Part shown: one piece after another, positions 3,674 through 64,000 of the stretch
Numbering within the stretch: the first letter of the stretch is position 1
How the letters are laid out: each line of letters begins with the position of its first letter
DNA from: Escherichia coli
GTDB lineage: Bacteria; Pseudomonadota; Gammaproteobacteria; Enterobacterales; Enterobacteriaceae
NCBI RefSeq assembly: GCF_041886205.1
Contig: NZ_CP169031.1
Length of the DNA stretch: 64,000 nucleotides
Strand: one strand, 5' to 3'
Made by a program: the position numbers and the translations under genes
Notes under the pieces: generated by a model
Seen by the model: the letters and a program-made list of their open reading frames with translations, nothing else
What the model was told of the DNA's origin: nothing
Database searches by the model: none

Positions 3674-5401
3674 TTGTGTTTAAGGAAGAGTAAATTGAGT
3701 AACTTACGCGAATACCAGAATCGTATTGCAGATATCGCAAAACGCTCTAAAGCTGTGCTTGGCTGGGCAAGCACTGCGCAGTTCGGTACTGATAACCAAT
3801 TCATTAAAGATGATGCCGCGCGTGCCGCATCTATCCTTGAAGCTGCACGTAAAGACCCGGTTTTTGCGGGTATCTCTGATAATGCCACCGCTCAAATCGC
3901 TACAGCGTGGGCAAGTGCACTGGCTGACTACGCCGCAGCACATAAATCTATGCCGCGTCCGGAAATTCTGGCCTCCTGCCACCAGACGCTGGAAAACTGC
4001 CTGATTGAGTCCACCCGCAATAGCATGGATGCCACTAATAAAGCGATGCTGGAATCCGTCGCAGCAGAGATGATGAGCGTTTCTGACGGTGTTATGCGTC
4101 TGCCTTTATTCCTCGCGATGATCCTGCCTGTTCAGTTGGGGGCCGCTACCGCTGATGCGTGTACCTTCATTCCGGTTACGCGTGACCAGTCAGACATCTA
4201 TGAAGTCTTTAACGTGGCAGGTTCCTCTTTTGGTTCTTATGCTGCTGGTGATGTTCTGGACATGCAATCCGTCGGGGTGTACAGCCAGTTACGCCGCCGC
4301 TATGTGCTGGTGGCAAGCTCCGATGGCACCAGCAAAACCGCAACCTTCAAGATGGAAGACTTCGAAGGCCAGAATGTACCAATCCGAAAAGGTCGTACTA
4401 ACATCTACGTTAACCGTATTAAGTCTGTTGTTGATAACGGTTCCGGCAGCCTACTTCACTCGTTTACTAATGCTGCTGGTGAGCAAATCACTGTTACCTG
4501 CTCTCTGAACTACAACATTGGTCAGATTGCCCTGTCGTTCTCCAAAGCGCCGGATAAAGGCACTGAGATCGCAATTGAGACGGAAATCAATATTGAAGCC
4601 GCTCCTGAGCTGATCCCGCTGATCAACCACGAAATGAAGAAATACACCCTGTTCCCAAGCCAGTTCGTTATCGCGGCTGAGCACACGGTACAGGCGGCGT
4701 ATGAAGCACAGCGTGAATTTGGTCTGGACCTGGGTTCCCTACAGTTCCGCACCCTGAAGGAATACCTGTCTCATGAACAGGATATGCTGCGTCTTCGCAT
4801 CATGATCTGGCGTACTCTTGCGACCGACACCTTTGACATCGCTCTGCCGGTTAACCAGTCCTTTGATGTATGGGCAACCATCATTCGTGGCAAATTCCAG
4901 ACTGTATATCGCGACATTATTGAGCGCGTTAAATCTTCTGGTGCGATGGGGATGTTTGCTGGTGCTGATGCAGCATCTTTCTTCAAACAGTTGCCGAAGG
5001 ATTTCTTCCAGCCAGCCGAAGACTATATCCAGACTCCGTATGTTCACTACATCGGTACCCTGTTCGGTAACGTGAAAGTGTACGAAGTACCTGCTGGTAT
5101 TTGTAAGAACTTAACGACAGAGAACATTCAGTTCAGCTCGATGGATGTGCTGTGCTACGTCCGTGATGAAAATCCGGGTAAAGCAGGCTTCGTGACTGGT
5201 GATGCTGTCCCGGCTATCCCGTTCCAGCATCCGACCACTCCGGCGCTGGTCAACCGTACCACACTGTGGGGTTCGGCTATCAACGATATGCACCCACGCA
5301 ACGGCGCTGATTACTTCACTCGTGTAACGCTGACAATGGCCAAAAAAGGCGGGCTTAACTTCATTAGCGGCGACACGATTGATGCCGGTGACTCTGAGTA
5401 A
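3674..5401 (+). CDS. Putative major head protein precursor (P1 gene 23-like)
   Basis: 575-aa ORF, first gene after parS and preceded by a late-promoter-like element. The track start is TTG; an in-frame TTG at 3695 has a better RBS (aaggaag). Confidence 0.5.
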   Translation: MCLRKSKLSNLREYQNRIADIAKRSKAVLGWASTAQFGTDNQFIKDDAARAASILEAARKDPVFAGISDNATAQIATAWASALADYAAAHKSMPRPEILASCHQTLENCLIESTRNSMDATNKAMLESVAAEMMSVSDGVMRLPLFLAMILPVQLGAATADACTFIPVTRDQSDIYEVFNVAGSSFGSYAAGDVLDMQSVGVYSQLRRRYVLVASSDGTSKTATFKMEDFEGQNVPIRKGRTNIYVNRIKSVVDNGSGSLLHSFTNAAGEQITVTCSLNYNIGQIALSFSKAPDKGTEIAIETEINIEAAPELIPLINHEMKKYTLFPSQFVIAAEHTVQAAYEAQREFGLDLGSLQFRTLKEYLSHEQDMLRLRIMIWRTLATDTFDIALPVNQSFDVWATIIRGKFQTVYRDIIERVKSSGAMGMFAGADAASFFKQLPKDFFQPAEDYIQTPYVHYIGTLFGNVKVYEVPAGICKNLTTENIQFSSMDVLCYVRDENPGKAGFVTGDAVPAIPFQHPTTPALVNRTTLWGSAINDMHPRNGADYFTRVTLTMAKKGGLNFISGDTIDAGDSE

Positions 5402-5461: not shown

Positions 5462-7051
5462 ATGTCTCAATATTCAATTCAACAGTCATTAGGTAATGCA
5501 TCCGGCGTCGCGGTTAGCCCGATCAATGCCGATGCGACGTTATCTACCGGTGTTGCATTAAATAGCAGCTTGTGGGCTGGTATTGGCGTATTTGCGCGTG
5601 GCAAGCCGTTTACTGTTCTTGCGGTTACTGAGTCCAATTACGAAGATGTTCTCGGCGAACCGCTGAAGCCGTCTTCCGGCTCACAGTTCGAACCAATTCG
5701 CCATGTATACGAAGCTATTCAGCAAACGTCAGGTTATGTTGTTCGTGCTGTTCCGGATGATGCGAAGTTCCCGATTATTATGTTCGATGAATCAGGCGAA
5801 CCGGCTTACAGTGCGTTGCCATACGGTTCTGAAATTGAACTTGATAGTGGCGAAGCCTTTGCTATCTACGTTGATGATGGTGATCCGTGTATTTCACCTA
5901 CCCGTGAGTTAACCATCGAAACGGCAACAGCGGACAGCGCGGGTAATGAACGCTTCCTCTTAAAACTGACCCAGACGACTTCGCTCGGCGTGGTAACGAC
6001 CCTGGAGACACACACTGTGTCTTTGGCGGAAGAAGCGAAAGATGACATGGGCCGCTTGTGTTATCTGCCTACGGCTCTGGAAGCCCGTTCTAAATATCTG
6101 CGCGCGGTTGTTAATGAAGAGCTGATTTCGACGGCGAAAGTAACAAATAAAAAATCGTTGGCGTTCACTGGTGGTACCAACGGTGATCAGTCGAAAATCT
6201 CAACCGCTGCGTACCTGCGTGCGGTGAAAGTGCTGAACAATGCGCCGTACATGTACACCGCTGTTCTCGGCCTGGGTTGCTATGACAATGCGGCGATCAC
6301 CGCGTTAGGTAATATTTGTTCTGATCGCCTGATTGATGGCTTCTTTGATGTCAAACCGACATTGACGTATACGGAAGCGCTCTCTGCTGTTGAAGATACC
6401 GGTTTACTTGGTACCGATTATGTAAGCTGTGCTGTCTATCACTTCCCGTTCTCCTGCAAAGACAAATGGACCCAATCCCGTGTGGTCTTCGGTCTGTCTG
6501 GCGCGGCGTATGCGGCGAAAGCTCGTGGCGTCAAGAAAAACTCTGATGTCGGCGGTTGGCATTACTCACCGGCTGGTGAAGAACGTGCCGTCATTGCTCG
6601 TGCGTCAATTCAACCGCTGTATCCGGAAGATACCCCGGACGAAGAAGCAATGGTTAAGGGCCGCCTCAATAAAGTATCTGTTGGCACCTCTGGCCAGATG
6701 ATCATCGACGATGCTTTAACTTGCTGCACGCAGGATAACTATCTGCACTTCCAGCACGTCCCATCCCTGATGAATGCAATCAGCCGTTTCTTTGTCCAGT
6801 TAGCCCGCCAGATGAAGCATAGCCCTGACGGTATTACTGCCGCTGGTCTGACTAAAGGGATGACCAAACTTTTGGATCGCTTTGTCGCCTCCGGCGCTCT
6901 GGTGGCTCCTCGTGATCCTGATGCTGACGGTACAGAACCGTATGTGCTGAAAGTTACGCAGGCGGAATTCGATAAATGGGAAGTAGTCTGGGCCTGCTGC
7001 CCGACTGGCGTAGCCCGTCGTATCCAGGGCGTACCGCTGCTTATTAAGTAA
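5462..7051 (+). CDS. Putative contractile tail sheath protein
   Basis: 529-aa ORF of sheath-like size, placed between the head gene and tube-like genes. Assigned from position and size only. Confidence 0.45.
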   Translation: MSQYSIQQSLGNASGVAVSPINADATLSTGVALNSSLWAGIGVFARGKPFTVLAVTESNYEDVLGEPLKPSSGSQFEPIRHVYEAIQQTSGYVVRAVPDDAKFPIIMFDESGEPAYSALPYGSEIELDSGEAFAIYVDDGDPCISPTRELTIETATADSAGNERFLLKLTQTTSLGVVTTLETHTVSLAEEAKDDMGRLCYLPTALEARSKYLRAVVNEELISTAKVTNKKSLAFTGGTNGDQSKISTAAYLRAVKVLNNAPYMYTAVLGLGCYDNAAITALGNICSDRLIDGFFDVKPTLTYTEALSAVEDTGLLGTDYVSCAVYHFPFSCKDKWTQSRVVFGLSGAAYAAKARGVKKNSDVGGWHYSPAGEERAVIARASIQPLYPEDTPDEEAMVKGRLNKVSVGTSGQMIIDDALTCCTQDNYLHFQHVPSLMNAISRFFVQLARQMKHSPDGITAAGLTKGMTKLLDRFVASGALVAPRDPDADGTEPYVLKVTQAEFDKWEVVWACCPTGVARRIQGVPLLIK

Positions 7052-7060
7052 GGGAATACA

Positions 7061-7876
7061 ATGAGCAAAAACTTTTTTCAATCCGGGGCATTTTTGGGGA
7101 ATGGACTGTCTCGTTTCGCTTTGAACTCTGATCCTGTGCAGCTGATGGAGTCTGCCCGAGCAAGCGCCGAACCGCCAACAGATCCGGTTATTAATAATAA
7201 TCCGGAACCGGCGGCACAGACTAACGATAACGTTCCATCTGCCCCGGCTCCTGAGCAAATCCTGGAAGGGAAAGACGGTAAAGAATGGACCGTCGAACAG
7301 GCGCACCAGATGATTCTGGAAGCTGCAAATCGAAGTGCTATGCAGAATGCGTTGAGTGATGCGGCCGACGCCGTTTTCGCCTGGGCTGATAGCGGTGATC
7401 TGACTTTCGACTCCCTTGATGGTTTCGTTCAGGCTATCGCTGGTATCTCTGATGACGACGACTCCGAAGTTACAGAAGAACAGGACGATGCCTATAACGA
7501 AGCATGGGCAAATGTTGCTGACTTCCTCGCAGCATGCGGTGTAGATGATGACCTGATCGAAGCACTGGCTGACGATGAAGACGACGACGCAGCTGCTGAT
7601 GTTGGTGCCTCTATCGCTGGTTTAGATAGCGACGACCGTGACGAACTGGAAGCGGCGTTTGTTGTTGCTGGCACTTCTGATGAAATGCTGACTGAAGCAT
7701 TTAAGAAGGTTGTTCGTAACGGTGAGATCAAACTCATCCGTAAACGCCTGCGTAAAAAACGTCTGACTGCGGCTCAAAAATCGGCGCTGAAAAAAGCGCG
7801 TCGAAAAGCCCAGACGGGTGCGGCAAAACTTGCCCGCAAAAAGTCAATGAAACTGCGCCGTAAGCGCCTTGGCTAA
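7061..7876 (+). CDS. Hypothetical virion protein with acidic core and basic C-terminal tail
   Basis: 271 aa; strongly acidic central region (D/E runs) and a Lys/Arg-rich C-terminus (KRLRKKRL...RRKRLG). Confidence 0.4.
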   Translation: MSKNFFQSGAFLGNGLSRFALNSDPVQLMESARASAEPPTDPVINNNPEPAAQTNDNVPSAPAPEQILEGKDGKEWTVEQAHQMILEAANRSAMQNALSDAADAVFAWADSGDLTFDSLDGFVQAIAGISDDDDSEVTEEQDDAYNEAWANVADFLAACGVDDDLIEALADDEDDDAAADVGASIAGLDSDDRDELEAAFVVAGTSDEMLTEAFKKVVRNGEIKLIRKRLRKKRLTAAQKSALKKARRKAQTGAAKLARKKSMKLRRKRLG

Positions 7877-7911: not shown

Positions 7912-8493
7912 ATGGCACCTATACCTTATGGGGTTTACAGCCAGGCTGACGGTGTATCGCCATTTCTGAAAGTTACTTTAACGAACTCTCAGTACCAGGT
8001 TACCGGATATATCAGCCAGGGGGCAGCAATGAACATGGCCCAGAATTGGGAAGCGCCGTTTACCGGTATGTCCATGGGGTCTGTTGCTGGTGCCTTCAGT
8101 GGTTTTGCGCAGGTTGGTACTGAAACAACGTCGGTGGCCCGTTGGAACAGCTTAATGGTTTGGGAGGGGGGAACACCGCCAACTTTCACGCTGCCAGTAA
8201 CTTTCATCGCTTTGTTTGATCCATTCACGGAGGTTTCAGGAGCTATCGCCGCATTGTCAGCGATGATTAGCCCGGAACTTAAAGATGCCAGTATTGGTGG
8301 TCGAATCCCGGAGCGTGTGACGCTAAACATTGGTCGCCGGATCAACATCATTGATGTCGCTATCCAGGACATAAGTTTCGATCTCGATGCGCCCAGGGAC
8401 AGCAATGGGCATTTCCTGAAAAACACCGTCAACCTCCAGTTGACCGGTTCTTCGATATATAACAGCTCCGATATTGTTCGGGCGTTCCAGTAA
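7912..8493 (+). CDS. Hypothetical tail or baseplate-associated protein
   Basis: 193-aa ORF inside the structural operon, after a weak hairpin at 7883-7902. Confidence 0.4.
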   Translation: MAPIPYGVYSQADGVSPFLKVTLTNSQYQVTGYISQGAAMNMAQNWEAPFTGMSMGSVAGAFSGFAQVGTETTSVARWNSLMVWEGGTPPTFTLPVTFIALFDPFTEVSGAIAALSAMISPELKDASIGGRIPERVTLNIGRRINIIDVAIQDISFDLDAPRDSNGHFLKNTVNLQLTGSSIYNSSDIVRAFQ

Positions 8494-8504
8494 AAGGATT
8501 TTAT

Positions 8505-9014
8505 ATGGGGCACAATAACACTAAGGGAAACCGTAAATTTATTAAGGGCCGCTATACTGCCAACGCGGCCAAAGGCGAACGACTGGTATCTTCTGAATTC
8601 CAGCTCACTTTTGCAGGCCATGAAGATATCAGCGTACTGGTTCGCACGTCGCAAATTCCTGAAATGACCCGCGAGGATGTGGAGGACTATGGTCCGAATG
8701 GTGTGAAGTTCAACCAGCACGGTCCAATTCGAAACTCTGGGGAAATCCAGGTCCAGTGCGTGGAGACTATCGAAGGCGATATTCTTCAGTTCATTAAAGA
8801 TCGCATTGCGGCGAAGGACTATGTTGATATCACGATGGCTGCTACCCCTGAATCCAAATCTTCCGGGGTTAACGCTGTGACAAAAGCTGCTACAACAATT
8901 GAAATGTTGGACTGCAAAATCTACAGTGATGCAATCGACTTTAGTACCGAAGATGTGACTGCCGCTGTGCGTCCGTCACTTCGTATCGTTTACAACTGGA
9001 TTGAGTGGGATTAA
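8505..9014 (+). CDS. Putative tail tube protein (gp19-like)
   Basis: 169 aa; size and the C-terminal ...NWIEWD ending are reminiscent of myovirus tube proteins. Followed by an intrinsic terminator. Confidence 0.45.
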   Translation: MGHNNTKGNRKFIKGRYTANAAKGERLVSSEFQLTFAGHEDISVLVRTSQIPEMTREDVEDYGPNGVKFNQHGPIRNSGEIQVQCVETIEGDILQFIKDRIAAKDYVDITMAATPESKSSGVNAVTKAATTIEMLDCKIYSDAIDFSTEDVTAAVRPSLRIVYNWIEWD

Positions 9015-9033: not shown

Positions 9034-9057
9034 AAAGCTCCTGCGGGAGCTTTTTTT
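9034..9057 (+). terminator. Rho-independent terminator
   Basis: Hairpin aaagctcc-tgcg-ggagcttt followed by a T-run. Confidence 0.55.
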
Positions 9058-9185
9058 ATAACTATTTTATATAAACATGCATCGATAACATTGTCTGGAG
9101 TTTTATGTTAGATTATTAATGTTCTAATAAACTACAATTATTGAGGTAGATGTTTGTGCCTGTACTGTTAAAGGGGGACTCTAAA

Positions 9186-9782
9186 ATGGCTGTGATTCCA
9201 ATGTCGTACTCCCCGGGTACTGTCGCTCGTCGATTTTCGATCCTGGACGGAGTTACCATCCAGGGTGTGCTTTACCAGGTTATATGGGATTCCAAAACCC
9301 CATTTGCAGCTGTAATAGAGGCTGCGCCTTCTGTTATCGATGGTGATATGCGCCATAAGGTTGTCGCTACTCTTGAACTTCAACGTCGCCCGCAGCTTGA
9401 AGGCGTACTGGTAAGGAAGTTCTGGGAGGATAGCGATGTTGCCCAGATTGAAGGTATCGTGGTTGATGGAACCGTCCGTGATGTCGGTTTAGCTACTTTT
9501 GTTTACGAAACCGTAGCCTCAAAAGCTGGTGTTGTTTTGCTTAGTGATAATGAGCAATACGAAGGTGGAAAAGCTCTTTGGCAACACATCGCCCGTCGCT
9601 CTTCCGAGCTAAAAGTGTTTATCCTCGACACCGATGCCGCTCAGTATTACCCGTTTGACGGCGAACGTGTTTGCTATGACGGGGTAAGTATTCCTGAATC
9701 TGAGATATGGAGTGAACACCCAGATCGAAGTAAGCATGGGGTTGTTCTTGTCGCTGAATCCATAACTGGAAAGGCGGCATAG
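9186..9782 (+). CDS. Hypothetical protein
   Basis: ORF track 9150..9782; the preferred start at 9186 (MAVIPMS...) has an aaggggga RBS. No recognisable motif. Confidence 0.4.
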   Translation: MAVIPMSYSPGTVARRFSILDGVTIQGVLYQVIWDSKTPFAAVIEAAPSVIDGDMRHKVVATLELQRRPQLEGVLVRKFWEDSDVAQIEGIVVDGTVRDVGLATFVYETVASKAGVVLLSDNEQYEGGKALWQHIARRSSELKVFILDTDAAQYYPFDGERVCYDGVSIPESEIWSEHPDRSKHGVVLVAESITGKAA

Positions 9783-36730: not shown

Positions 36731-38650
36731 ATGGAACAGTTCAATATCAATAAAGGGGTGACGATCAAACCTGGGCTTGACGTGCTTCCCCCGCCAGTGA
36801 CTGATGATGAATATCGCGCATTAATGGCCGGTGAGGACCGCTATCTGATGACGGAATCCAACACCCTGGAGGAAATCGAGGCTACGTTCTTCTATGACAC
36901 GCCGATCCACTGGTGTGCTACGGATTTACTGGAGGCGATTAGTTCTACTCGTTTGCAGCTACACCGGACCATGCAGGCATTTGTCCGGGCATTGAACCAG
37001 AAGCTGAATGGTACCGGAATCTCTGCGGGGAGTGATAAAACGGGGGATGTGGCCCAGAACGGTGCACGCGCGATCGGCGGGGCTGAAATTGGCCGGGCAC
37101 GTAACGTTAACGGGCTGCCGGTCCTGCCAGCCATTATTCCGCTCAGTGATGGTCAGACTATCAGCATTCTGTTTCATAGCCCGACAGCGGAAAACCGGAT
37201 CACCAATAGCGATACGCTGATTGCTTTCCAGTTCTTACTGAATAAAAAAGACGTTACTCATACCGTTGCTCCGATGAGTGGACGTGATATGACGCTGGCG
37301 CAGGTCACCATGAAACTTGCCAACCTTGCAGAGAAAAACTCGGCAAAATTCCAGCGTGCGCAGAAGAAGAAAAAAGCCCTGGTTGATGAAATAACCCAAC
37401 TACAGGCTGACAGTGACCAGAAAGAGGATGCCATGAGCGACCTCGCGGATCAGGTGGCAGCGGTAGAAGGGCAGAAGGTAGATCTGGAGCAGAAAATTAA
37501 CGCTGTTGCATCGGAAGCGGATTCTCTTTATGAAGAGAATGAGCGTTTGCAGACGGAGATTGATCAGCTCAATCGAACTGGTGGGCGCGAAACCATTGCT
37601 CCTGCGGGGATGACTGGTGGACACTCTCGCGCGATGACGGATCGCCTTGCAAGTATCAAAAATCGTATGCATATGAACGGGGAAGTGACGCTCAGTAATG
37701 GTGCATCAATGAAGCAATTCATTGAGGACGGTGAAGGGTATATCCAGTTAACCGATTCGGATGGCAGCGTGTACATGATCAAGGCTAAATCCATACAGGG
37801 TGTGGACATGGCAGATGCGATCGGCAAGCTGTTTAAAGCCTATAAAGCGGGTAATGTATCGGAATACCTGGTCCAACCAGAAGAACATAAACCGGAAAAC
37901 GTCGAACCTGAACCAGCGGAGGATACCGGTAGCTCTTCGCCTGAACCAGAAATCTCTGTAGGTGCATATCGATATGCCCTGCAAATGCGTCCGGCGGCCC
38001 CTGGCGCAATACCTGAAGGTAACAAAGCAATTCTGCCGCGCCCTGATGAAGGTGACCCGTATTATGAATATGCACGCTACGGCATTGCTACTTACGATAC
38101 CCCGCTTTCTGATCAGCAAATGAGTGAGTACGACCTGAAGTTATTGCCTCGCGAGGATTCTTTCGACTTCTTGGCGAAGACACTTACTAATGGTCCGTTT
38201 GGCAAATATGCACAAAAAGCTCTGGAGCTGGCCACCAGCTCACCAGACGAGTTCCGCGTAATGCTGAAAACTCAGTTTCAAAAAACTTTCCCCAATATTG
38301 CGTTTCCGGGGGGCGCTGGCACCGAGAAAATGGTGCAGAGCATGATCAATGCATTGCAGGCCGAAGTCGGTGAGATTACTCAGCCAGAACCTGCCCCGGC
38401 ACAGCCTGATGAAACGGTTAGCGAAGCAGATGCAGAGGCTAATAAAGCCATTGAATATCTCAATAACGTGATGGATATGCAAAGCACTGACATGGCGGAG
38501 ATCCGTAACGCCCGGGGTAATGTCCGGGAAGCGATTGCAGCCCTTCAGGCTGCCGGGCGTTTTGAGGAAAACGAAGAGCTGGTTAATGGCGCTGCTCGCC
38601 ACTTGGCTGATCTGCTGGTAGCAATCCAGAAAGCGGGGGTAGCGGCATGA
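36731..38650 (+). CDS. darA: DarA antirestriction head protein
   Basis: 639-aa ORF in the lydAB-hdf-darA arrangement; acidic, coiled-coil-rich. Confidence 0.7.
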   Translation: MEQFNINKGVTIKPGLDVLPPPVTDDEYRALMAGEDRYLMTESNTLEEIEATFFYDTPIHWCATDLLEAISSTRLQLHRTMQAFVRALNQKLNGTGISAGSDKTGDVAQNGARAIGGAEIGRARNVNGLPVLPAIIPLSDGQTISILFHSPTAENRITNSDTLIAFQFLLNKKDVTHTVAPMSGRDMTLAQVTMKLANLAEKNSAKFQRAQKKKKALVDEITQLQADSDQKEDAMSDLADQVAAVEGQKVDLEQKINAVASEADSLYEENERLQTEIDQLNRTGGRETIAPAGMTGGHSRAMTDRLASIKNRMHMNGEVTLSNGASMKQFIEDGEGYIQLTDSDGSVYMIKAKSIQGVDMADAIGKLFKAYKAGNVSEYLVQPEEHKPENVEPEPAEDTGSSSPEPEISVGAYRYALQMRPAAPGAIPEGNKAILPRPDEGDPYYEYARYGIATYDTPLSDQQMSEYDLKLLPREDSFDFLAKTLTNGPFGKYAQKALELATSSPDEFRVMLKTQFQKTFPNIAFPGGAGTEKMVQSMINALQAEVGEITQPEPAPAQPDETVSEADAEANKAIEYLNNVMDMQSTDMAEIRNARGNVREAIAALQAAGRFEENEELVNGAARHLADLLVAIQKAGVAA

Positions 38651-39024: not shown

Positions 39025-42012
39025 ATGAGCTTAAGCGATCAGGTGGTAATGGCCACCAGCATAGAAACGCTGATCGAGCTGCTAAAGAACCTGCCCGGTT
39101 ATGGGCGGGTTTCGTATGTGGTGACAGCGAAGGGAGACGAGGTAAAAACAGCGTTTGATATCGTCGATGCCTCAGCTCTTTTGGTATCCAATACTCTGGA
39201 TGGGAAAATTAATCCTGACTATCCCCAGGAACTTCAGCCGCGCGACCGGACCCGCGCATCCAGCCTTCTTCAGGTTAACCAGATATCCAAAGATTTGCGG
39301 CCTGCTCAGCTTACTGATTCCGGTTTATCCAGCCATGGTGCGCCGATAATTGGTGAGGACAATGCCGTTGAGTCAGGTAATGGACGGACCATGGGGATCA
39401 TCAAAGCCTATCAGGACGGCAATGCGGATCGGTATCGTGAGTACCTGATTGATCATGCGACCGAATTCGGCATACGACCTGAAAAGGTTGAATCAATGAC
39501 GGCTCCGGTACTGGTGCGCCGCCGGTTAACCAAGGTTGACCGCGTTCAGTTTGCCAAGGACTCAAATATTTCTGATCTTCAGGAAATGGCAGCCAGTGAA
39601 AAGGCTTTTGTTGATGCCGACAGCATAACACCGGCGATGATGGCGCTTTTTAACCCGTCAGAAAGCGGAGATCTGCTTAGCCGCAGTAATGACGCGTTTA
39701 TTCGCGGATTTATGACGCAAGTTGGTGCCACACAGGCGGCTGGCCTTGTAACTGAAGATGGGCGACCAACACGGCAACTTGTAGACCGTATACAAAACGC
39801 GATCTTTGCCAAGGCATATAAGGATGCGCGCCTGGTAAGGATGGTTGCAGAAGAACCTGATCCGGACATGCGTAATGTTCTGACGGCGCTTAATGCGGCA
39901 GCCAATGATTTTGTCCAGATGCAGGCTTTATCAGGAGAAGCGCACAAGCAGGCTGTGACAACTATTGTTGATGGCATTGAGACAGCGGATAGCCTCGATA
40001 AAAAGGCGCTGGCGGCATTGAAAGATGCGGTAGACCTGGTAAGGCAATCGAAGGAGTCAGGCCAGCATATTACCGATGTTATTGCTCAGGGGGATATGTT
40101 CAGCGAAACGGCCCCGGAAGTGAAAGCACTCGCGTTGTTCATCGTCGCGAATAACCGTAGCGCGAAGCGTATGGCCTCCGCCTTTAAGTTGATGGCTCAA
40201 CGTATCAATGATGAGTTACAGCACCAGGGCCAGGCGCTGGGGGATATGTTTGGCGGTGGTGATGTGTCGTTACAGGATATCCTTCGCCAGGTGTCTCAGG
40301 AACTGGAAAACGAAGGCATGCAAGGGATATCCGGCGGTCTTTTCGAGTCCGTTTCCGGCGGTAGTTACAATGGTGTTGCTCCATATACCAGTTTGCTATT
40401 ACATCGGGCATCCGGCATCAAAGACATTATTCATCTGATCAGGCTGCTTTCCCGTACAGATCCCCAGGATGAACAGCTTGTACAAGTGCTTGCGCATTTT
40501 GTTCGAATGCCTGTTGCCGACGTGAAAAAATGGTGCCGATTATTCGGTATCAGCAATTCGTTACTTCGCGGCTTGTTAAATCACGCATCCTCCCTTGGGC
40601 GCGATGGCTTTGACGAGATAGCGCAGGCGATAAAAAACGGAGATATGCCACCAGCTATTGACTGGTTTTCCATTCGCCCAACCAGGGTGAAAGCATTCCT
40701 TAGCGCGGCGCATTCGGCATCACCATTGGCAGAAATGGTTCAGAGGTTGTCGCTCATATTCACAGACCATACCGCGTTGGGTGATTTGACTCTGGACGAG
40801 ATGAAAGAAGCCTCCATTCAGTGGGCCGATCAACAAAATGAGGTTAACTCTGACTTCTTGCCAGCATTCAGGAAGGCCGTTAGTAAAGCTGATGATGCCC
40901 GTGGAATTCTGAGGGCATTTAAGGCATTGCAAAGTCAGGTTAATAAACATGTCGGTGATATCGATGGGGTAACGGCGGAAGGCAGGGATATCCTTAAAGA
41001 GCACGGCATAACGCCAGAGTTTATTGATGAGATCAGGACTGATATGCAGCGTGAGGTCGTATCGTCCCTGCAAATCGTAGCCAGAGCGTTGGCGGATGCT
41101 AATCCGAAGAGTGCGGCCATTGTTAACCGTGTTATTGGTGATATTGAAGCATCGGAGGGCATGGGGGCGCTGAAACTCTTCCTTTCGCGAGCGTTTAATC
41201 CTAACGGCAATATTCTCCCCGGCATTATTGGTGAGGCTAAAAAGTATGTCAGCGAAGAAGAACTTGAGCATCTTGACCAACTACTTAAGCGATTCTCATA
41301 TAACCCGCAGACACGCTGGCAAATGAATCAGCAAAGTATGGGTTCGGTCCACGAGAAAGTGTTATCTGCCATGAACAGTGCGATCGCCAACTCATCCGTA
41401 TCTGAAGAAAAAGCTCTTGAGTGGGCCGACTCTTTTATCACGGAAGAAGTGGAAGAAGCCCGCGCTGGACAGAATGGTGGGATAGACCTGCGCAAGGAAC
41501 TTGCTGATATTTATCGCCTGACCGGCGGTAAAATTTCGACCTTATCAAAGGTGGTTCACCACCAGGGAAGGGCATATGCAAATATTAATGGTGTTGTTGC
41601 TGTCAATTTGAACGATGAAAATGCAAGTGCACTGTGGCACGAGCTGGGTCATCATCTTGAGTACAGTAACCCTGGTTTGTTAGAGAAAGCCCGGTCATTC
41701 CTGAAGGCCAATGTTGAAGGGGATAAGCCATCTTTCGTTAATATCGGTGGGCGTGGCAAGCCTGAATGGTGCTTCAGATCTCGATTGAGTAATATTTATA
41801 TGGCGAAGGTATACCCGCCAGCCTCAGTAAGTAACACCGGGAAAATTCGGCAGAAATCACCGACTATTTCCAAAACGTCAGCAACGGAAGTATTCTCTAT
41901 GGCTCTTCAGTTGTATCATGACAAAGAGGCCGCTGCCGCATCACTGATGAATGGTGACGGATTGCTGGAACTGTTATTAGGTGTGGCAAAGGAGCTAAAT
42001 AATGCAGATTAA
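39025..42012 (+). CDS. ddrB: DdrB-like large protein of the dar operon
   Basis: 995-aa ORF following ddrA; assigned by position and size. Confidence 0.55.
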   Translation: MSLSDQVVMATSIETLIELLKNLPGYGRVSYVVTAKGDEVKTAFDIVDASALLVSNTLDGKINPDYPQELQPRDRTRASSLLQVNQISKDLRPAQLTDSGLSSHGAPIIGEDNAVESGNGRTMGIIKAYQDGNADRYREYLIDHATEFGIRPEKVESMTAPVLVRRRLTKVDRVQFAKDSNISDLQEMAASEKAFVDADSITPAMMALFNPSESGDLLSRSNDAFIRGFMTQVGATQAAGLVTEDGRPTRQLVDRIQNAIFAKAYKDARLVRMVAEEPDPDMRNVLTALNAAANDFVQMQALSGEAHKQAVTTIVDGIETADSLDKKALAALKDAVDLVRQSKESGQHITDVIAQGDMFSETAPEVKALALFIVANNRSAKRMASAFKLMAQRINDELQHQGQALGDMFGGGDVSLQDILRQVSQELENEGMQGISGGLFESVSGGSYNGVAPYTSLLLHRASGIKDIIHLIRLLSRTDPQDEQLVQVLAHFVRMPVADVKKWCRLFGISNSLLRGLLNHASSLGRDGFDEIAQAIKNGDMPPAIDWFSIRPTRVKAFLSAAHSASPLAEMVQRLSLIFTDHTALGDLTLDEMKEASIQWADQQNEVNSDFLPAFRKAVSKADDARGILRAFKALQSQVNKHVGDIDGVTAEGRDILKEHGITPEFIDEIRTDMQREVVSSLQIVARALADANPKSAAIVNRVIGDIEASEGMGALKLFLSRAFNPNGNILPGIIGEAKKYVSEEELEHLDQLLKRFSYNPQTRWQMNQQSMGSVHEKVLSAMNSAIANSSVSEEKALEWADSFITEEVEEARAGQNGGIDLRKELADIYRLTGGKISTLSKVVHHQGRAYANINGVVAVNLNDENASALWHELGHHLEYSNPGLLEKARSFLKANVEGDKPSFVNIGGRGKPEWCFRSRLSNIYMAKVYPPASVSNTGKIRQKSPTISKTSATEVFSMALQLYHDKEAAAASLMNGDGLLELLLGVAKELNNAD

Positions 42013-42313
42013 AATCGCAGCGCCATTAGGCGGAGATGCCATTATCGAATTTGATGATAATGAAGAAGTTTCCGGGCGTTTAAGCATTATCTCCGGTGAC
42101 ATTACCGAGGACATGATCGCTGAAGCCATAGCTGGGGCAAATCCCAATAGCTATATGGGATTCGTTAACACCCTTGATGCTCCCGCAAGTGATGTTCTCC
42201 GAACGCTGCATCTTTACGCTGGCTGGTTTGTTGATTGGCCAGCAGTAGATGGTGGCGATGAGGACGACGACGACGATGATTTTGGTGATCATGTAGACCA
42301 GATCGTATATTGA
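42002..42313 (+). CDS. Small highly acidic protein, last gene of the dar operon
   Basis: 103 aa; C-terminus DGGDEDDDDDDFGDHVDQIVY; followed by a strong terminator. Confidence 0.45.
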   Translation: MQIKIAAPLGGDAIIEFDDNEEVSGRLSIISGDITEDMIAEAIAGANPNSYMGFVNTLDAPASDVLRTLHLYAGWFVDWPAVDGGDEDDDDDDFGDHVDQIVY

Positions 42314-42316
42314 AGA

Positions 42317-42344
42317 AATCCCGCCAATCGGCGGGATTTTTTTT
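42317..42344. terminator. Bidirectional rho-independent terminator
   Basis: aatcccgcc-aatc-ggcgggatt followed by a T-run; ends the dar operon and the convergent ssb operon. Confidence 0.65.
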
Positions 42345-43125
42345 AATCGCTTTCCACTTCTTCCGTGGTGTTTTCTTGCAGTTCTGTTAATGCAGCACGA
42401 CATAGGTTCCGGGCATTGGCTATAGCCACACTTTTGACTTCATCCGTCATCGTGCAGGTAATGTACTGATCGAGTTCTTCAGCGCGGATGATGCTTTTGC
42501 CAATCAGAAACTGTATTTGCCAGAGCAGATCGGCATCCATAATCAGAATTTCTGCCGGGCCTTCAGGGCCAGCCGGGAAGGAAACATAAGACTGTTTGCC
42601 CAGGCCGACAACTCGACAACTTGCTTCAAGAATTGCGCGCTTGAGGTCTGACTTTATAACGGAAACAGGTTGATTTTCACCAGTGATTACGCCGTTGACA
42701 TGGAAAGGCATGTAGCTTGAAATACGCTCCACTTTCCACACGCCAGCAAGCGATCCTTCATGCAGCACAATGGGGGTAACCGCGAGTTTCATCTCACCAT
42801 ATAACTGCTGGCAGATAGCTGGATTGCTGAATACATCTAAAGGCTCACATTCAAACAGCGGCGCAATCTGCATGAGGTCCATCATGGTCATCCCTGGGGT
42901 ACGAGCAGTAATGAATTTGCGCATACCAGTATCCATTGCGCTCCAGATTGCTACACCATGCTTTTTGCTCACTTCTTCAGTAAAGCCAAGGTGGCACATG
43001 ATGGTTTTTTCGATAGCCAGATCAGAGATAGAAACCTTTTCGCCAGGTACTCCATCATTATTGATGGTCACTTCGACACTCTGGCCATTACGCAGGCGGT
43101 ATTGAATTGCTTTAGTATTTTCCAC
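42343..43125 (-). CDS. Hypothetical protein, third gene of the ssb operon
   Basis: 260-aa ORF, 6 bp downstream of the preceding gene. Confidence 0.45.
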   Translation of the reverse strand: MENTKAIQYRLRNGQSVEVTINNDGVPGEKVSISDLAIEKTIMCHLGFTEEVSKKHGVAIWSAMDTGMRKFITARTPGMTMMDLMQIAPLFECEPLDVFSNPAICQQLYGEMKLAVTPIVLHEGSLAGVWKVERISSYMPFHVNGVITGENQPVSVIKSDLKRAILEASCRVVGLGKQSYVSFPAGPEGPAEILIMDADLLWQIQFLIGKSIIRAEELDQYITCTMTDEVKSVAIANARNLCRAALTELQENTTEEVESD

Positions 43126-45513: not shown

Positions 45514-48244
<2,731 letters not shown>

Positions 48245-61747: not shown

Positions 61748-63232
61748 TTATTCATTAAGCCATGCCAGAGCTTCATCAACCTGCGCTTCGTCTTCGACGC
61801 TAAGCACTTCATCCTGGGGAACATAATCCGCCAGCATAGCGAAACAATATGTATCCCAATGGTCTGGTGAGTGCAGGTTGAGTTTTTTCTTCATATCCTC
61901 CTTACTCATCACCTTCCATTGACCTGCGGAGTTAATCCCTACAGGGATTTTCGACGCTTCCTCAATAGTTTCATTACCCTTATCCAGTCTCATACGACCA
62001 GATTTTACGGCCTCTGCGGCTTGAACGTTGGCATAAGCACGTTTATCAAAGTACAGGCTCTTATCTTCACGGCTATGCATCTTTTTACCCCAGCGTATAC
62101 GCTGTACGGTAATACCATAATACTCGTACATCAGATCCGCCGTTGCTTTACCCAGGCCATCGCCGTCTATCGCTATGGTGATATTTGGGAATCGCTCAGG
62201 ATTACATTCTGCGAAAATTTTGGCGGCAAGCTGCGTTTCTGTAACGTCTGTGTATTCCAGCATTCGATAGTTGATTACACGGCGTTTATTTCGCTGGCCG
62301 GACACCATCATGATATTGATAACGGACTTATCCCGTCCCGTACCACCAGCAACGTCCACACATGCAAGCCAGCCCCATCCTTTTGCAATCTTGACTTTCC
62401 GCCTCGTTGCACGTTCAACCTCATCACGTCCAAGAAGGAAGCCATCCTGTGATTTAGGGAATAGGCCGCGTACCTTAATCATGTACATAGGGTTATCACG
62501 CCCGCCGTACTCCGCCAGCTTCATTTTGATAAATGCTGGCGTTACCAGCGGTGATTCCTCACTGTTAAGCGTGATCGCCGTATAAACGCCATCAGGGTTA
62601 CCAGGACGCTTGGCCAGTTTATGGTGAGTATCGTAGAAATAGCCGCTTGGGCGTGTAGGCTGTGACAGTAATAAGATGCGGTTATCCTGTCCGGTAAGAG
62701 CACCGGTGATGATACCGAAAGCTCTATCACTGACACCGGAGGCTTCATCGATAATATACAGAAGATGATCTGCGTGTTCACCGGCGAGAGCTTCTTCACT
62801 TCCCAGACGAAAGCCCTTCGGTACTACAGTCCATACACCTTTACCAGTAACCTCATAGAAAGCGGTTTCTGTCAGAACAAAATAATCAGCAAGCCATGGA
62901 AAACGGCTGGTGGCAGTAGCCCAGTTTATCTTGATGTACTTGAAAATACCGGTCATTACCTGCTGAATTTTGTTCGCAACGATAATGGCGCGGGCACCGG
63001 GATACATGATTATGAACAACATGATCATGATAGAAGTCATGTCTGATTTCCCGGTACCGTGACCAGACGAAACAGATGTCTTGCTACCCTGTTCCTGCAC
63101 AGACTCAATAATCAGATCCTGCTGCCAGGTAGGTGTTTTGCCGAACAAAACATCAGCGGCCGCAATCCAGTCATAACGATATAGCGCCACCAGCTCGCGC
63201 CAACGTGGATCCGTTACGCAACTTCTGGCCAT
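61748..63232 (-). CDS. pacB: Terminase (pacase) large subunit PacB
   Basis: 494-aa ORF convergent with c1 and overlapping the pacA stop. Confidence 0.7.
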
Positions 63233-64000
63233 TAATCATCATCCCCGTATAGCTTGCGGGTAACTTCTTCGTCTTCCTCCTCGTCTTCGTCCAGGTCTTG
63301 TTCCAGCCATGGGTCGTTTGATACACCTTCAGTATCAACATCTCCATAACCGCCTGTATCAACGATATCGGCGATTTCTTCCCTACGCTGCTCAATCCAC
63401 AATGCGGCATCGGCGCGGCGGTTGGCGGCCCGTTCTCGCGCAACTTTATCCAGATCTTCAAGAGAAGGACCACCGACGGCTGTTTGCCTTTCCTCATCAT
63501 CGGTATTGGTCTTAGGAGCACGCAGATCGGCTTTGATTTGCTCCAGCATCAGAGGCGGAACTTTCCCACCATGCGCCTCGATGAATTCAGCTGCTTCCAG
63601 CACTGACCAGTTATTTTCACGCTTTCGTTCGTATGCCAGCTTAACAATGCCAGCTTGCCCCATAGACAAAGCGTGCTTTTCCGCCTCCCGGCTTTCTTTT
63701 CGATAGTTATTCCGGATGCTGTAAATGGTGTTGATCAGGCTGCTTATCTGCGCGGAACAGCTGTTTAGCATGCTCGCGATACGGTATTCAGGCGGAGTAC
63801 CTTCATCATCGTCTTTTTGCTGATCGCGCATTTCCTGCACCAGGCGAATACACGTATCCCTGGCGTTCTCCAGCATAAGGAGATGAGAAAGAGACTTTTC
63901 AAGAAGAGTGGTTTCCAGAACATCGGCCCCGGACCGACGCAACATAGCGCGCGCGGCCTTCCGCGCTTCAACGTTATCTATCAGGTAATCGCCAGCTTCG
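63232..64000 (-). CDS. pacA: Pacase subunit PacA, 3' part only
   Basis: Minus-strand ORF open to the window edge; the N-terminus and pac site are expected beyond 64000. One TGATCA is visible at 63733. Confidence 0.55.

What the first reader, a model, noticed from the sequence alone, without database searches (positions are those of the whole stretch)
7061..7876. Two strongly charged small proteins in the structural and dar operons
The 271-aa protein has a poly-acidic core and a Lys/Arg-rich tail (KRLRKKRL...RRKRLG), a composition seen in DNA-binding internal head proteins or scaffolds. The 103-aa last gene of the dar operon (42002-42313) ends in DGGDEDDDDDDFGDHVDQIVY. Highly acidic phage proteins are sometimes DNA mimics with anti-restriction activity, which would fit the dar context.
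Basis: inference. Interest (0 to 1): 0.25.

Follow-up and report, generated by a model that had tools for sequence, protein, structure and literature searches.

The report
P1 gp21: likely missing head scaffold
The acidic 271-aa protein is phage P1 gene 21, labelled a tail part, but its conserved cleavage motifs track the capsid protein's maturation site across related phages, so it is most likely the head-scaffold protein P1 was thought to lack; the 103-aa protein is P1 Hxr, whose function stays unknown.

Summary
Both ORFs are real and are already-annotated genes of a P1-like phage: gene 21 (7061-7876, "baseplate or tail tube") and hxr (42002-42313, "possible repressor, Xre homolog"). Neither label holds up.

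gp21 is absent from the published P1 virion proteome and from both cryo-EM models. It has a disordered N-terminus, a confident acidic helical core and a very conserved basic tail. It carries three conserved hydrophobic-hydrophobic-Glu|Ser/Ala motifs identical in type to the known P1 capsid maturation cut (MLE|S). In 7 lineages the residue before the capsid cut (E, E, E, D, D, A, S) matches the gp21-family sites; three cases were predicted before looking. In 138 diverged members the sites switch together (odds ratio 37). P1's protease is T4 gp21-like, and T4's scaffold gp22 shows the same motif signature, size and pI. The basic tail weakly resembles the C-terminus of T4 core protein gp68.

Best reading: gp21 is a protease-processed prohead core/scaffold protein, contradicting statements that P1 has no separate scaffold.

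Hxr is a ddrB-coupled, small acidic alpha/beta protein. It shows no HTH and no known DNA-mimic fold. The anti-restriction idea is neither supported nor excluded.

The parts
7061..7876 (+). Gene 21 (gp21), 271 aa plus stop; proposed prohead core/scaffold protein
   Evidence: ORF; equals P1 gene 21; phrog_1053 of unknown function; family of 594 representative clusters
7061..7150 (+). gp21 aa 1-30: N-terminal peptide predicted to be removed (conserved FF..GA.L...FA motif, disordered)
   Evidence: AF2 pLDDT <50; alignments A1/A2
7142..7153 (+). Site 1: L28-M29-E30|S31, putative Pro cleavage site
   Evidence: Glu in 64/69 and Ser in 53/69 homologs despite variable surroundings; same type as the MCP cut MLE|S
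7151..7282 (+). gp21 aa 31-74: Pro/Ala/Asn-rich variable linker, disordered
   Evidence: Length and sequence vary across homologs; low pLDDT
7283..7675 (+). gp21 aa 75-205: acidic all-helical core (no K/R from aa 92 to 192)
7313..7324 (+). Site 2: I85-L86-E87|A88, putative cleavage site inside the first long helix
   Evidence: Glu 52/69, Ala 59/69; switches to D, S or A together with the other sites
7688..7699 (+). Site 4: L210-T211-E212|A213, putative cleavage site separating the acidic core from the basic tail
   Evidence: Glu 65/69 and Ala/Ser 69/69, in a low-pLDDT linker; present in all 138 diverged representatives as E 90, D 41, S 5, A 2
7697..7873 (+). gp21 aa 213-271: basic tail (59 aa, 6.8 kDa, net +25), the most conserved part of the family; resembles the T4 gp68 C-terminus
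   Evidence: Conservation; hhalign against T4 gp68 gave probability 72.5%, E 3.3e-5, and against the gp68 family 64.6%, E 6.3e-5; 0 of 150 column shuffles reached the real score in either direction; weak but systematic HMM signal
3695..5401 (+). Gene 23, major capsid protein; first gene of the same late operon
   Evidence: all three PhiPhiE[SA] motifs lie in the cleaved propeptide
4046..4057 (+). MCP maturation site M-L-E|S (E120|S121 in P1 numbering), the reference site for the motif
   Evidence: Edman sequence SVAAEM in Gonzales 2022; sequence in the window
5462..7051 (+). Gene 22, tail sheath (upstream neighbour)
   Evidence: phrog_1036 tail sheath
7912..9014 (+). pmgG (7912-8493) and bplB (8505-9014), the downstream essential tail genes on which knock-downs or amber mutations in gene 21 could be polar
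9034..9060 (+). Intrinsic terminator ending the 23-22-21-pmgG-bplB operon
   Evidence: 8-bp stem followed by a T run
45514..46563 (-). pro, T4 gp21-like prohead protease, the proposed enzyme acting on gp21; 6 self-motifs
   Evidence: Motif enrichment 6 against 0.55 expected; HHpred 99.4% to T4 gp21 (5JBL) reported in Gonzales 2022 Table S4
42002..42313 (+). hxr, 103 aa plus stop; ddrB-coupled small acidic protein of unknown function
42248..42310 (+). Hxr aa 83-103: disordered acidic tail with a poly-Asp run
   Evidence: pLDDT <50; run length varies from 5 to 8 Asp between strains
41989..41994 (+). Shine-Dalgarno AAGGAG of hxr, inside the 3' end of ddrB
   Evidence: Sequence
42318..42344 (.). 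Hairpin (ATCCCGCC/GGCGGGAT) plus T8: terminator of the darA operon
   Evidence: Sequence

Best explanation
gp21 is a component of the P1 prohead interior: a scaffold/core protein of the T4 type that the prohead protease Pro cuts up during head maturation. It is not a baseplate or tail-tube part.

Inferred mechanism:
1. It is made late from the same operon as the capsid protein.
2. It co-assembles inside the procapsid.
3. When Pro is activated, it cuts after the conserved Glu at E30|S31, E87|A88 and E212|A213, the same type of site as the capsid cut MLE|S.
4. This releases a 30-aa N-peptide, a strongly acidic helical core (net -42) and a 59-aa basic tail (net +25).
5. The acidic pieces leave, or are expelled by incoming DNA. 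This would explain why no gp21 is seen in virions.

The fate of the basic, gp68-like tail is unknown. It may anchor the protein to the core or shell before cleavage, or stay with the DNA afterwards.

Hxr is a separate matter. It is a small acidic alpha/beta protein translationally coupled to ddrB. It is most likely a stoichiometric partner (chaperone, adaptor or inhibitor) of the DdrB polyvalent protein, and not an Xre-type repressor. Confidence in that is low.

Shown here: the motifs, their conservation, their co-variation with the capsid site, and the T4-like signature. Inferred: actual cleavage, prohead location and the scaffolding role.
For: 1. Motif enrichment. PhiPhiE[SA] is enriched in only 2 of 47 window proteins: gp21 (4 observed, 0.25 expected) and the protease Pro (6 observed, 0.55 expected). 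The MCP is third, with all 3 occurrences in its cleaved propeptide.
2. Independent motif. A motif defined only from the MCP and DarA sites still gives gp21 3 observed against 0.17 expected, P about 0.001.
3. Other proteins fit. DarA's LLE|A is at E68|A69, and cryo-EM density begins at residue 70. Unprocessed Hdf, DarB, PmgG and BplB have none.
4. Conservation. Sites 1, 2 and 4 are conserved in 69 homologs, and sites 1 and 4 lie in disordered segments.
5. Co-variation with the MCP. The residue before the MCP cut matches the gp21-family sites in 7 lineages (E, E, E, D, D, A, S). L009, L013 and L015 were predicted before inspection.
6. Co-variation within the protein. In 138 diverged representatives, Glu-class members have 198 upstream Glu-type sites against 37 expected. 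Asp-class members have 68 Asp-type sites against 21.7 expected. Odds ratio 37.
7. T4-like head module. P1 MCP, portal and Pro are T4-like by HHpred. T4 protease cuts L/I-X-E and degrades gp22, gp67 and gp68.
8. Positive control. T4 gp22 (269 aa, pI 4.58) has 6 motifs against 0.82 expected, while T4 sheath, tube and portal are not enriched.
9. gp68 resemblance. The gp21 tail aligns to the T4 gp68 C-terminus beyond what composition explains.
10. Absence from virions. gp21 is not in the virion proteome despite four tryptic peptides of 15-22 aa (plus one of 7 aa), and not in either cryo-EM model.
11. Hxr. It overlaps ddrB in three lineages at 40-48% identity. Its predicted fold is beta-beta-beta-alpha-alpha-beta, not an HTH.
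Against: - The gene keeps the label 'baseplate or tail tube' from P1 amber-mutant electron microscopy (Walker & Walker 1983, via the P1 annotation). I could not read that paper or check how the mutants were tied to this ORF.
- In every relative the gene sits between the sheath gene and the pmgG/tube genes. T4 also interleaves sheath/tube and head-core genes.
- There is no sequence or fold homology to T4 gp22 or any known scaffold.
- The gp68 similarity is weak. The best shuffles nearly reach the real score, and no single HMM score beats the best decoy.
- The Asp class may be one clade, so the number of independent switches is small (at least 3).
- P1's MCP has its own 120-aa propeptide, which others regard as the scaffold.
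- No cleavage or prohead localisation of gp21 has been observed.
- For Hxr, nothing beyond gene linkage supports a DdrB partnership.
Confidence: 0.68

Rival explanations
1. gp21 is a non-virion tail assembly factor, for example a tape-measure or tube chaperone, or a sheath chaperone that prevents polysheath. The acidic domain would coat a basic partner and the basic tail would recruit the electronegative tube. This would fit the historical label.
For: Annotated phenotype 'baseplate or tail tube'. Conserved position between the sheath and pmgG/bplB in all relatives. Absent from virions. The tube and sheath carry charged interfaces. Size and charge polarity resemble lambda gpGT (own knowledge).
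Against: It does not explain three conserved sites that match and co-vary with the capsid maturation site, nor the resemblance to T4 head-core protein gp68. PmgB, next to the tape measure gene in both P1 and Vibrio, is already the proposed chaperone. No TAC family hit. The phenotype could come from amber mutations in, or polarity on, pmgG and bplB, which are exactly baseplate-junction and tube genes (inference; CRISPRi polarity is documented).
Confidence: 0.17
2. gp21 is mainly an internal head protein precursor. Its function lies in the 59-aa basic tail, which is released by cleavage, stays bound to packaged DNA (histone-like charge neutralisation) and may be injected. The acidic core is only a masking pro-domain.
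For: The tail is the most conserved part of the family. A conserved site lies immediately before it. Net charge +25. Its only tryptic peptide of 7 aa or more is AQTGAAK, so LC-MS/MS could not have seen it, and cryo-EM would not resolve it. The T4 RefSeq note calls gp68 a virion protein.
Against: No evidence of retention in virions. T4 reviews say gp68 is degraded to small peptides. At scaffold-like copy numbers it would neutralise only a few percent of the DNA charge (own estimate). The acidic core is a well-folded conserved domain, more than a mask.
Confidence: 0.12
3. Hxr is a DNA-mimic anti-restriction protein acting with the Dar system.
For: 23% acidic residues and only 3 basic residues; a disordered poly-Asp tail; located in the darA antirestriction operon. 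Non-essential for plaque formation, as accessory anti-defence genes are.
Confidence: 0.15
4. Hxr is an Xre-type transcriptional repressor (the current database annotation).
For: The P1 annotation note reports 28% identity over about 58 aa to a phage Xre repressor.
Against: No HTH or any Pfam/NCBIfam hit even at E<=1. The predicted fold has three beta-strands first and only two helices. Net charge of -21 is implausible for a DNA binder. PGAP now calls it 'hypothetical protein'.
Confidence: 0.03

Closest known systems
T4 gp22, major prohead scaffolding core protein
   Same: Nearly identical size and charge (269 aa, pI 4.58, against 271 aa, pI 4.55). Helical and acidic. Strongly enriched in hydrophobic-x-Glu|Ala/Ser protease sites (6 against 0.82 expected, compared with 4 against 0.29). 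Absent as an intact protein from virions. Works with a homologous protease, portal and MCP.
   Different: No detectable sequence homology (hhalign probability 0.8%). gp22 has no basic tail. The gene sits next to the protease and MCP in T4, but between the sheath and tube-junction genes in P1-like phages.
T4 gp68 (Pfam PF26830), minor prohead core protein implicated in head-size determination
   Same: The C-terminal basic domain aligns with the gp21 tail: L-x-E just before it, V..GEI, A.Q..L.KA.R, and a terminal G-L. Probability 65-72%, E about 5e-5, above composition-matched shuffles. Both are protease substrates in a T4-type core.
   Different: gp68 is 141 aa with a different N-terminal half. 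The similarity is weak and could be convergence of Lys/Arg-rich helices. Pfam PF26830 does not hit gp21. gp68 is non-essential in T4.
phiKZ/SPN3US/201phi2-1 head proteins processed by gp175-type (T4 gp21-like) proteases
   Same: Head membership has been inferred from short x-x-Glu| cleavage motifs, with redundant sites in propeptides.
   Different: Those were shown by mass spectrometry. Here cleavage is inferred from motif conservation and co-variation only.
P22 gp8 / phi29 gp7 type scaffolding proteins
   Same: Helical and acidic overall, with a basic C-terminal element that contacts the shell, and absent from virions (own knowledge).
   Different: Those exit intact and are recycled rather than proteolysed. 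No homology.
Lambda gpG/gpGT and other tail assembly chaperones
   Same: Non-virion, acidic, with the gene inside a tail gene block, and similar in length to gpGT (own knowledge).
   Different: No frameshift, no TAC family hit, not adjacent to the tape measure gene, and TACs carry no head-protease sites.
Ocr / ArdA DNA-mimic antirestriction proteins (comparison for Hxr)
   Same: Small, very acidic, phage or plasmid encoded, in an anti-restriction context.
   Different: No sequence or fold similarity. Hxr's charge is concentrated in a disordered tail rather than patterned on a rigid DNA-like surface.

Membership tests
T4-type prohead core proteins (substrates of the gp21-like prohead protease) | Encoded by a phage whose MCP, portal and protease are T4-like | tested here: met
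   HHpred 100%, 100% and 99.4% reported in Gonzales 2022 Table S4. I did not recompute this. Pfam and a PDB sequence search on Pro found nothing.
T4-type prohead core proteins (substrates of the gp21-like prohead protease) | Carries cleavage motifs of the cognate protease, above chance and conserved | tested here: met
   4 against 0.25 expected. Sites 1, 2 and 4 conserved in 69 homologs. Co-variation with the MCP site in 7 lineages and across 138 representatives.
T4-type prohead core proteins (substrates of the gp21-like prohead protease) | Physically present in proheads and cleaved during maturation | not testable with these tools
   Needs prohead proteomics or in vitro cleavage.
T4-type prohead core proteins (substrates of the gp21-like prohead protease) | Intact protein absent from mature virions | tested here: met
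   Not among the 23 LC-MS/MS proteins and not in the cryo-EM models, although four tryptic peptides of 15-22 aa (plus one of 7 aa) exist.
T4-type prohead core proteins (substrates of the gp21-like prohead protease) | Loss of function gives head, not tail, defects | not testable with these tools
   The database label says tail defect. The primary paper is not held. CRISPRi is polar. No clean deletion has been published.
T4 gp22 family | Sequence homology to gp22 | tested here: not met
   hhalign probability 0.8%.
T4 gp68 family (PF26830) | Sequence homology to gp68 | tested here: inconclusive
   C-terminal 54-68 columns align with probability 65-72%. 0 of 150 shuffles reach the real score, but the best shuffle is 35.0-35.2 against 35.7. 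The HMM signal is systematic but weak. No Pfam hit.
Tail assembly chaperones (gpG/GT-like) | TAC family domain, a programmed frameshift, or adjacency to the tape measure gene | tested here: not met
   No Pfam or PHROG TAC hit. In the Vibrio locus, five genes lie between gp21 and the Sit-like gene, and PmgB is the adjacent one.
Baseplate or tail tube structural proteins (current label of gp21) | Present in the tail/baseplate structure; tube-like beta fold | tested here: not met
   Absent from both cryo-EM tail-baseplate models and from the proteome. The predicted fold is all-helical.
Xre/Cro HTH repressors (current label of Hxr) | Helix-turn-helix DNA-binding domain | tested here: not met
DNA-mimic antirestriction proteins (Ocr, ArdA) | Homology or fold similarity to a known mimic; inhibition of type I restriction-modification enzymes | tested here: not met
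   No similarity. Inhibition is not testable here, so 'works like a mimic' remains open.

The most novel reading that the evidence does not exclude
P1-like phages, a family of at least several hundred lineages, use a previously unrecognised scaffold. It is a single polypeptide combining an acidic helical core with a gp68-like polycationic tail, held together until the prohead protease cuts between them. The charge-complementary halves would drive self-assembly of the core and help set head size (P1 makes both big and small heads). After cleavage, the 6.8-kDa polycation would stay on the packaged DNA as a histone-like internal peptide that trypsin-based proteomics and cryo-EM have both missed.
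Probability: 0.2. Interest if true: 0.7.

Novelty: new variant of a known kind. Interest (0 to 1): 0.5.

Why it matters
P1 is a classic model phage, the standard E. coli transducing phage, and a delivery chassis. Two recent structural and proteomic studies state that it has no separate scaffolding protein and assign that role to the capsid propeptide, with help from DarA/Hdf. If gp21 is the scaffold/core protein, four things follow:
- A 40-year-old gene label is wrong.
- The model for P1 head assembly and head-size choice (big against small heads, which affects transduction and payload capacity) needs a new player.
- Several hundred uncharacterised 'hypothetical' or 'tail tube' proteins in phage-plasmids and prophages get a function.
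- The co-variation approach, matching candidate sites to the capsid maturation site lineage by lineage, is a cheap general way to find prohead-protease substrates from sequence alone.

For Hxr, the practical result is that the 'Xre-like repressor' label should be dropped.

Tried and rejected
- Family searches. Pfam, NCBIfam and PADLOC gave nothing for either protein. PHROGs gave only unknown-function families.
- T4 comparisons. hhalign to T4 gp22 and gp67 found no homology.
- Unavailable papers. Lobocka 2004 and Walker & Walker 1983 are not held, so the basis of the 'gene 21' phenotype remains unchecked.
- Gonzales 2022 supplement. It contains no gene 21 or hxr deletion and no sub-threshold detection.
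- Protease autoprocessing sites in the Asp, Ser and Ala lineages. No Pro or portal gene lies within the fetched flanks.
- Short contigs. Two non-Glu lineages (P0263, P0241) sat on contigs too short to include the MCP.
- Site 3 (L165-A168) of gp21 was rejected because it is not conserved.
- CRISPRi 'essentiality' of gene 21 was rejected as evidence because of polarity.
- Hxr's 'IIE|F' (aa 14-17) was considered as a protease site and rejected. The residue after the Glu does not fit, and the segment lies in a predicted strand.
- The tape-measure-chaperone reading was considered first and demoted once the protease-site co-variation appeared.
Full report
**What is there**

The window is a P1-like phage (Punavirus), 98-99.7% identical at the nucleotide level to P1, P7, SJ46, RCS47 and relatives over both regions. 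The 271-aa ORF at 7061-7876 (+) is P1 gene 21, annotated 'baseplate or tail tube'. It lies in the order 23 (major capsid protein) - 22 (sheath) - 21 - pmgG - bplB. It starts 9 nt after the sheath stop codon, and no terminator appears until a strong hairpin after bplB at 9034-9053.

The 103-aa ORF at 42002-42313 (+) is P1 hxr, annotated 'possible repressor; homolog of Xre' on the strength of 28% identity over about 58 residues. It is the last cistron after hdf-darA-ddrA-ddrB. It has an AAGGAG Shine-Dalgarno 7 nt upstream and an 11-nt overlap with ddrB, and a hairpin plus T8 terminator follows directly.

gp21 has no Lys or Arg between residues 92 and 192, and its last 59 residues carry net +25. 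Hxr has 24 acidic against 3 basic residues.

**What was known**

- Neither protein is among the 23 proteins found by LC-MS/MS in purified P1 virions (Gonzales 2022).
- gp21 appears in neither cryo-EM model of P1. Those models assign BplB as the tube, Tub as the tube initiator and PmgG as a T4 gp48-like tube-hub adaptor.
- Both structural papers say that P1 has no separate scaffolding protein and that the 120-residue capsid propeptide does that job.
- Genome-wide CRISPRi scores gene 21 as essential and hxr as non-essential. The authors stress that a knock-down upstream of essential genes is uninformative because of polarity, and pmgG and bplB lie just downstream of gene 21.
- No clean deletion of gene 21 or hxr was made.
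- I could not obtain Walker & Walker 1983 or Lobocka 2004. So I could not check the basis for the 'baseplate or tail tube' label, or for tying the gene-21 amber mutants to this particular ORF.
- The negative proteomics is meaningful for gp21, which has four tryptic peptides of 15-22 aa plus one of 7 aa. It is not meaningful for Hxr, which has only one and could never pass the two-peptide threshold.

**Anatomy of gp21**

No Pfam, NCBIfam or PADLOC family matches it, and it falls in PHROG 1053 of unknown function. It nevertheless belongs to a large family:
- 85 clusters in a word-indexed search.
- 594 representative clusters at E<=1e-3 in an exhaustive HMM search, mostly 215-260 aa.
- Hosts range from Enterobacterales to Vibrio, Plesiomonas and Mailhella.

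The gene order MCP - (small gene) - sheath - gp21 - PmgG - tube is kept in every relative examined. In Vibrio it continues into PmgC - Tub - PmgB - tape measure.

AlphaFold2 on a 69-sequence alignment gives:
- a disordered N-terminus (residues 1-70);
- a confident all-helical acidic core (about residues 75-205, pLDDT 82-92);
- a low-confidence linker;
- a partly helical basic tail.

**The key result: protease-type sites**

Two nearly invariant glutamates stood out in the alignment: E30 in 'LME|S' and E212 in 'LTE|A'. The P1 capsid protein is known from Edman sequencing to be cut at E120|S121, and in this window that site reads 'AMLE|SVAAEM'.

*Motif counts in the window.* I counted hydrophobic-hydrophobic-Glu-Ser/Ala motifs in all 47 sizeable proteins of the window.

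| Protein | Observed | Expected from shuffles | Note |
|---|---|---|---|
| gp21 | 4 | 0.25 | strongly enriched |
| Pro (prohead protease) | 6 | 0.55 | strongly enriched |
| MCP (gp23) | 3 | 0.53 | all three in the cleaved propeptide, none in the mature 447 aa |
| DarA | 2 | 0.73 | both in the first 69 residues |
| Hdf, DarB (2255 aa), PmgG, BplB | 0 | - | Hdf is known to be unprocessed |

DarA's 'LLE|A' falls at E68|A69, and the cryo-EM density of DarA begins at residue 70. Because I had partly tuned the motif on gp21, I repeated the test with a motif defined only from the MCP and DarA sites. gp21 still has 3 against 0.17 expected (P about 0.001).

*Conservation in 69 homologs.*

| Site | Residues | Conservation | Location |
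|---|---|---|---|
| 1 | 28-31 | Glu 64/69, Ser 53/69 | disordered, otherwise variable |
| 2 | 85-88 | Glu 52/69, Ala 59/69 | inside the first long helix |
| 3 | 165-168 | not conserved, dropped | acidic core |
| 4 | 210-213 | Glu 65/69, Ala/Ser 69/69 | low-confidence linker before the tail |

**Co-variation**

The few homologs without Glu have changed it at all three sites at once: to Asp in one lineage and to Ala/Ser in the Vibrio lineage. I then compared the capsid maturation site in the same genomes.

| Lineage | MCP maturation site | gp21-family sites |
|---|---|---|
| P1-like window | MLE\|S | LME\|S, ILE\|A, LTE\|A |
| L007 | IFE\|A | ILE\|A, IFE\|A |
| Mailhella (L003) | IFE\|G | IFE\|S, VLE\|S |
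| Vibrio (L005) | LLA\|S | ILA\|S, LFA\|S, LLS\|S |
| L009 | ILD\|S | VFD\|S, ILD\|A, ILD\|A |
| L015 | VMD\|S | LFD\|S, IFD\|A |
| L013 | LLS\|S | QLS\|S, LLS\|A |

The L009, L013 and L015 results were predicted from the gp21 homolog before I looked at the capsid protein. All seven lineages and four residue states are concordant.

An alignment-free count on 138 mutually diverged family representatives shows the same rule.

| Residue at site 4 | n | Upstream sites of the same type (observed / expected) | Other type (observed / expected) |
|---|---|---|---|
| Glu | 90 | 198 / 37 | Asp type 33 / 46 |
| Asp | 41 | 68 / 21.7 | Glu type 11 / 15.4 |
| Ser | 5 | 5 / 1.5 | - |
| Ala | 2 | 4 / 1.3 | - |

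The odds ratio is 37. The nominal P of 2e-31 is inflated by shared ancestry, and the number of independent switches is at least three.

The simplest explanation is that one trans-acting factor reads all these sites and the capsid site, and that factor is the prohead protease.

**The T4 connection**

Gonzales et al. report HHpred matches of P1 gp23, Prt and Pro to the T4 capsid, portal gp20 and prohead protease gp21, at 100%, 100% and 99.4%. T4 protease cuts after Glu in L/I-X-E motifs, first seen at a Glu-Ala bond in gp22, and degrades the core proteins gp22, gp67 and gp68.

As a positive control, T4's own proteins behave as expected. The scaffold gp22 (269 aa, pI 4.58) has 6 motifs against 0.82 expected, and the protease has 2 against 0.16. 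T4 sheath, tube and portal are not enriched. P1-like gp21 (271 aa, pI 4.55) matches gp22 in size, charge and site density. It has no sequence homology to it (hhalign probability 0.8%).

Unexpectedly, the gp21 family profile does align with the C-terminal half of T4 gp68, a minor core protein linked to head-size determination. The result is probability 72.5%, E 3.3e-5, 32% identity over 68 columns. The alignment includes the L-x-E just before the basic region and the terminal Gly-Leu. Against a gp68 family profile the result is probability 64.6%, E 6.3e-5.

Controls:
- Column-shuffled controls that keep composition scored 17.2±4.4 and 21.1±4.7 against the real 35.7. None of 150 reached it in either direction, although the best came within one point.
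- A gp68 HMM scores real gp21-family members systematically above tail-shuffled decoys (Mann-Whitney P about 1e-16). No single score beats the best decoy.

I therefore regard the gp68 relationship as suggestive, not established. T4 also interleaves sheath, tube, portal, core, protease, scaffold and MCP genes in one block. So the position of gene 21 next to the sheath gene is weak evidence for a tail role.

**Interpretation of gp21**

The best-supported reading (confidence about 0.68) is that gp21 is a prohead-internal core/scaffold protein cut by Pro at E30|S31, E87|A88 and E212|A213. The predicted products are:
- a 30-aa N-peptide;
- an acidic core with net charge -42;
- a 59-aa, 6.8-kDa basic tail with net charge +25.

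This explains its absence from virions, its late co-expression with the capsid protein and the site co-variation. It contradicts the database label and the published view that P1 lacks a separate scaffold.

The main counter-evidence is the historical tail-defect phenotype. I think this may reflect amber mutations in, or polarity on, pmgG and bplB. Those two genes are a baseplate-tube junction gene and the tube gene, which is exactly what the label describes. That is inference, and I could not check it.

The chief rival, a non-virion tail chaperone (about 0.17), fits the gene's position and the label. It leaves the co-varying sites and the gp68 resemblance unexplained, and PmgB is already the positional candidate for tape-measure chaperone. 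A third reading is that the released basic tail is the functional product and stays on the DNA. Trypsin-based proteomics and cryo-EM would both have missed it.

**Hxr**

Hxr is found in 504 plasmid records, which are P1-like phage-plasmids. It is conserved at 40-48% identity in Cronobacter phage JK004 and a Leclercia plasmid. In both it again overlaps the 3' end of the ddrB-size gene, and it keeps motifs such as GW.V(D/E)WP and an acidic C-terminus. The long poly-Asp run is specific to the P1 lineage, and its length varies between near-identical strains.

DdrB is a polyvalent protein with a ParB-like domain. According to Iyer et al. it also has a C-terminal metallopeptidase. Tight translational coupling suggests that Hxr is a stoichiometric partner of DdrB, but nothing else supports this. 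The DNA-mimic idea has no positive evidence and is not excluded.

**Verdict**

- The Hxr guess remains open.
- Novelty: a new variant of a known kind (T4-type prohead core proteins).
- Interest: moderate. It re-assigns a classical P1 gene and fills a stated gap in P1 head assembly, pending one simple genetic experiment.

Noticed in passing
window 45514-46563 (-), pro: The protease has an N-terminal protease domain (about aa 20-170). Its C-terminal half gives weak coiled-coil hits and carries 4 of its 6 cleavage-type motifs, which looks like a protease fused to a self-degraded scaffold-like tail. RefSeq and PHROG 1801 label it 'tail fiber protein', which is a misannotation.
   Followed up: partly
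window 46526-48235 (-), prt (portal): There is a single cleavage-type motif, QILE|SVFKE, 12 residues from the C-terminus. C-terminal trimming of the portal is possible.
   Followed up: no
window 39025-42012 (+), ddrB, aa 439-442: DdrB has one motif, GLFE|SVSGG. DdrB is reported to be processed to about 76 kDa, but this site does not obviously give that size. An HExxH motif (WHELGHH) lies near the C-terminus.
   Followed up: no
window 36731-38650 (+), darA, aa 66-69: DLLE|AISS places a protease-type site at E68|A69. This is one residue before the first residue resolved in the published cryo-EM model (70) and at the start of the Pfam DarA_N domain. It gives a precise prediction for the so far unmapped DarA processing site.
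   Followed up: partly
window 7912-8493 and 18782-19663; L005 9921-11800: PHROGs and RefSeq call PmgG, PmgC and PmgB 'head morphogenesis' proteins. Cryo-EM and genetics place PmgG and PmgC in the tail/connector and PmgB in tail assembly.
   Followed up: no
window 9150-9782 (+): There is a 210-aa ORF (phrog_7522, unknown function) downstream of the bplB terminator, where P1 has the 98-aa pmgF. This is a cargo difference between this phage and P1.
   Followed up: no
window 42343-43125 (-): Downstream of hxr this phage has a convergent 260-aa ORF and no IS1, unlike P1, which has isaB and IS1 there.
   Followed up: no
L005 5952-6377; L009 8057-8440; L013 3567-3929; L015 3434-3829; L003 5924-6235; L007 5823-6371: Distant relatives carry an extra small gene (103-182 aa, no family hit) between the MCP and sheath genes. 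P1 lacks it.
   Followed up: no
window 42263-42280 (Hxr poly-Asp codons): The Asp-run length varies from 5 to 8 among otherwise near-identical P1-like Hxr proteins, consistent with slippage in the GAC/GAT repeat.
   Followed up: partly
window 63232-63945 (-): This 237-aa ORF has 2 cleavage-type motifs (0.27 expected, P=0.027). Its identity was not checked.
   Followed up: no
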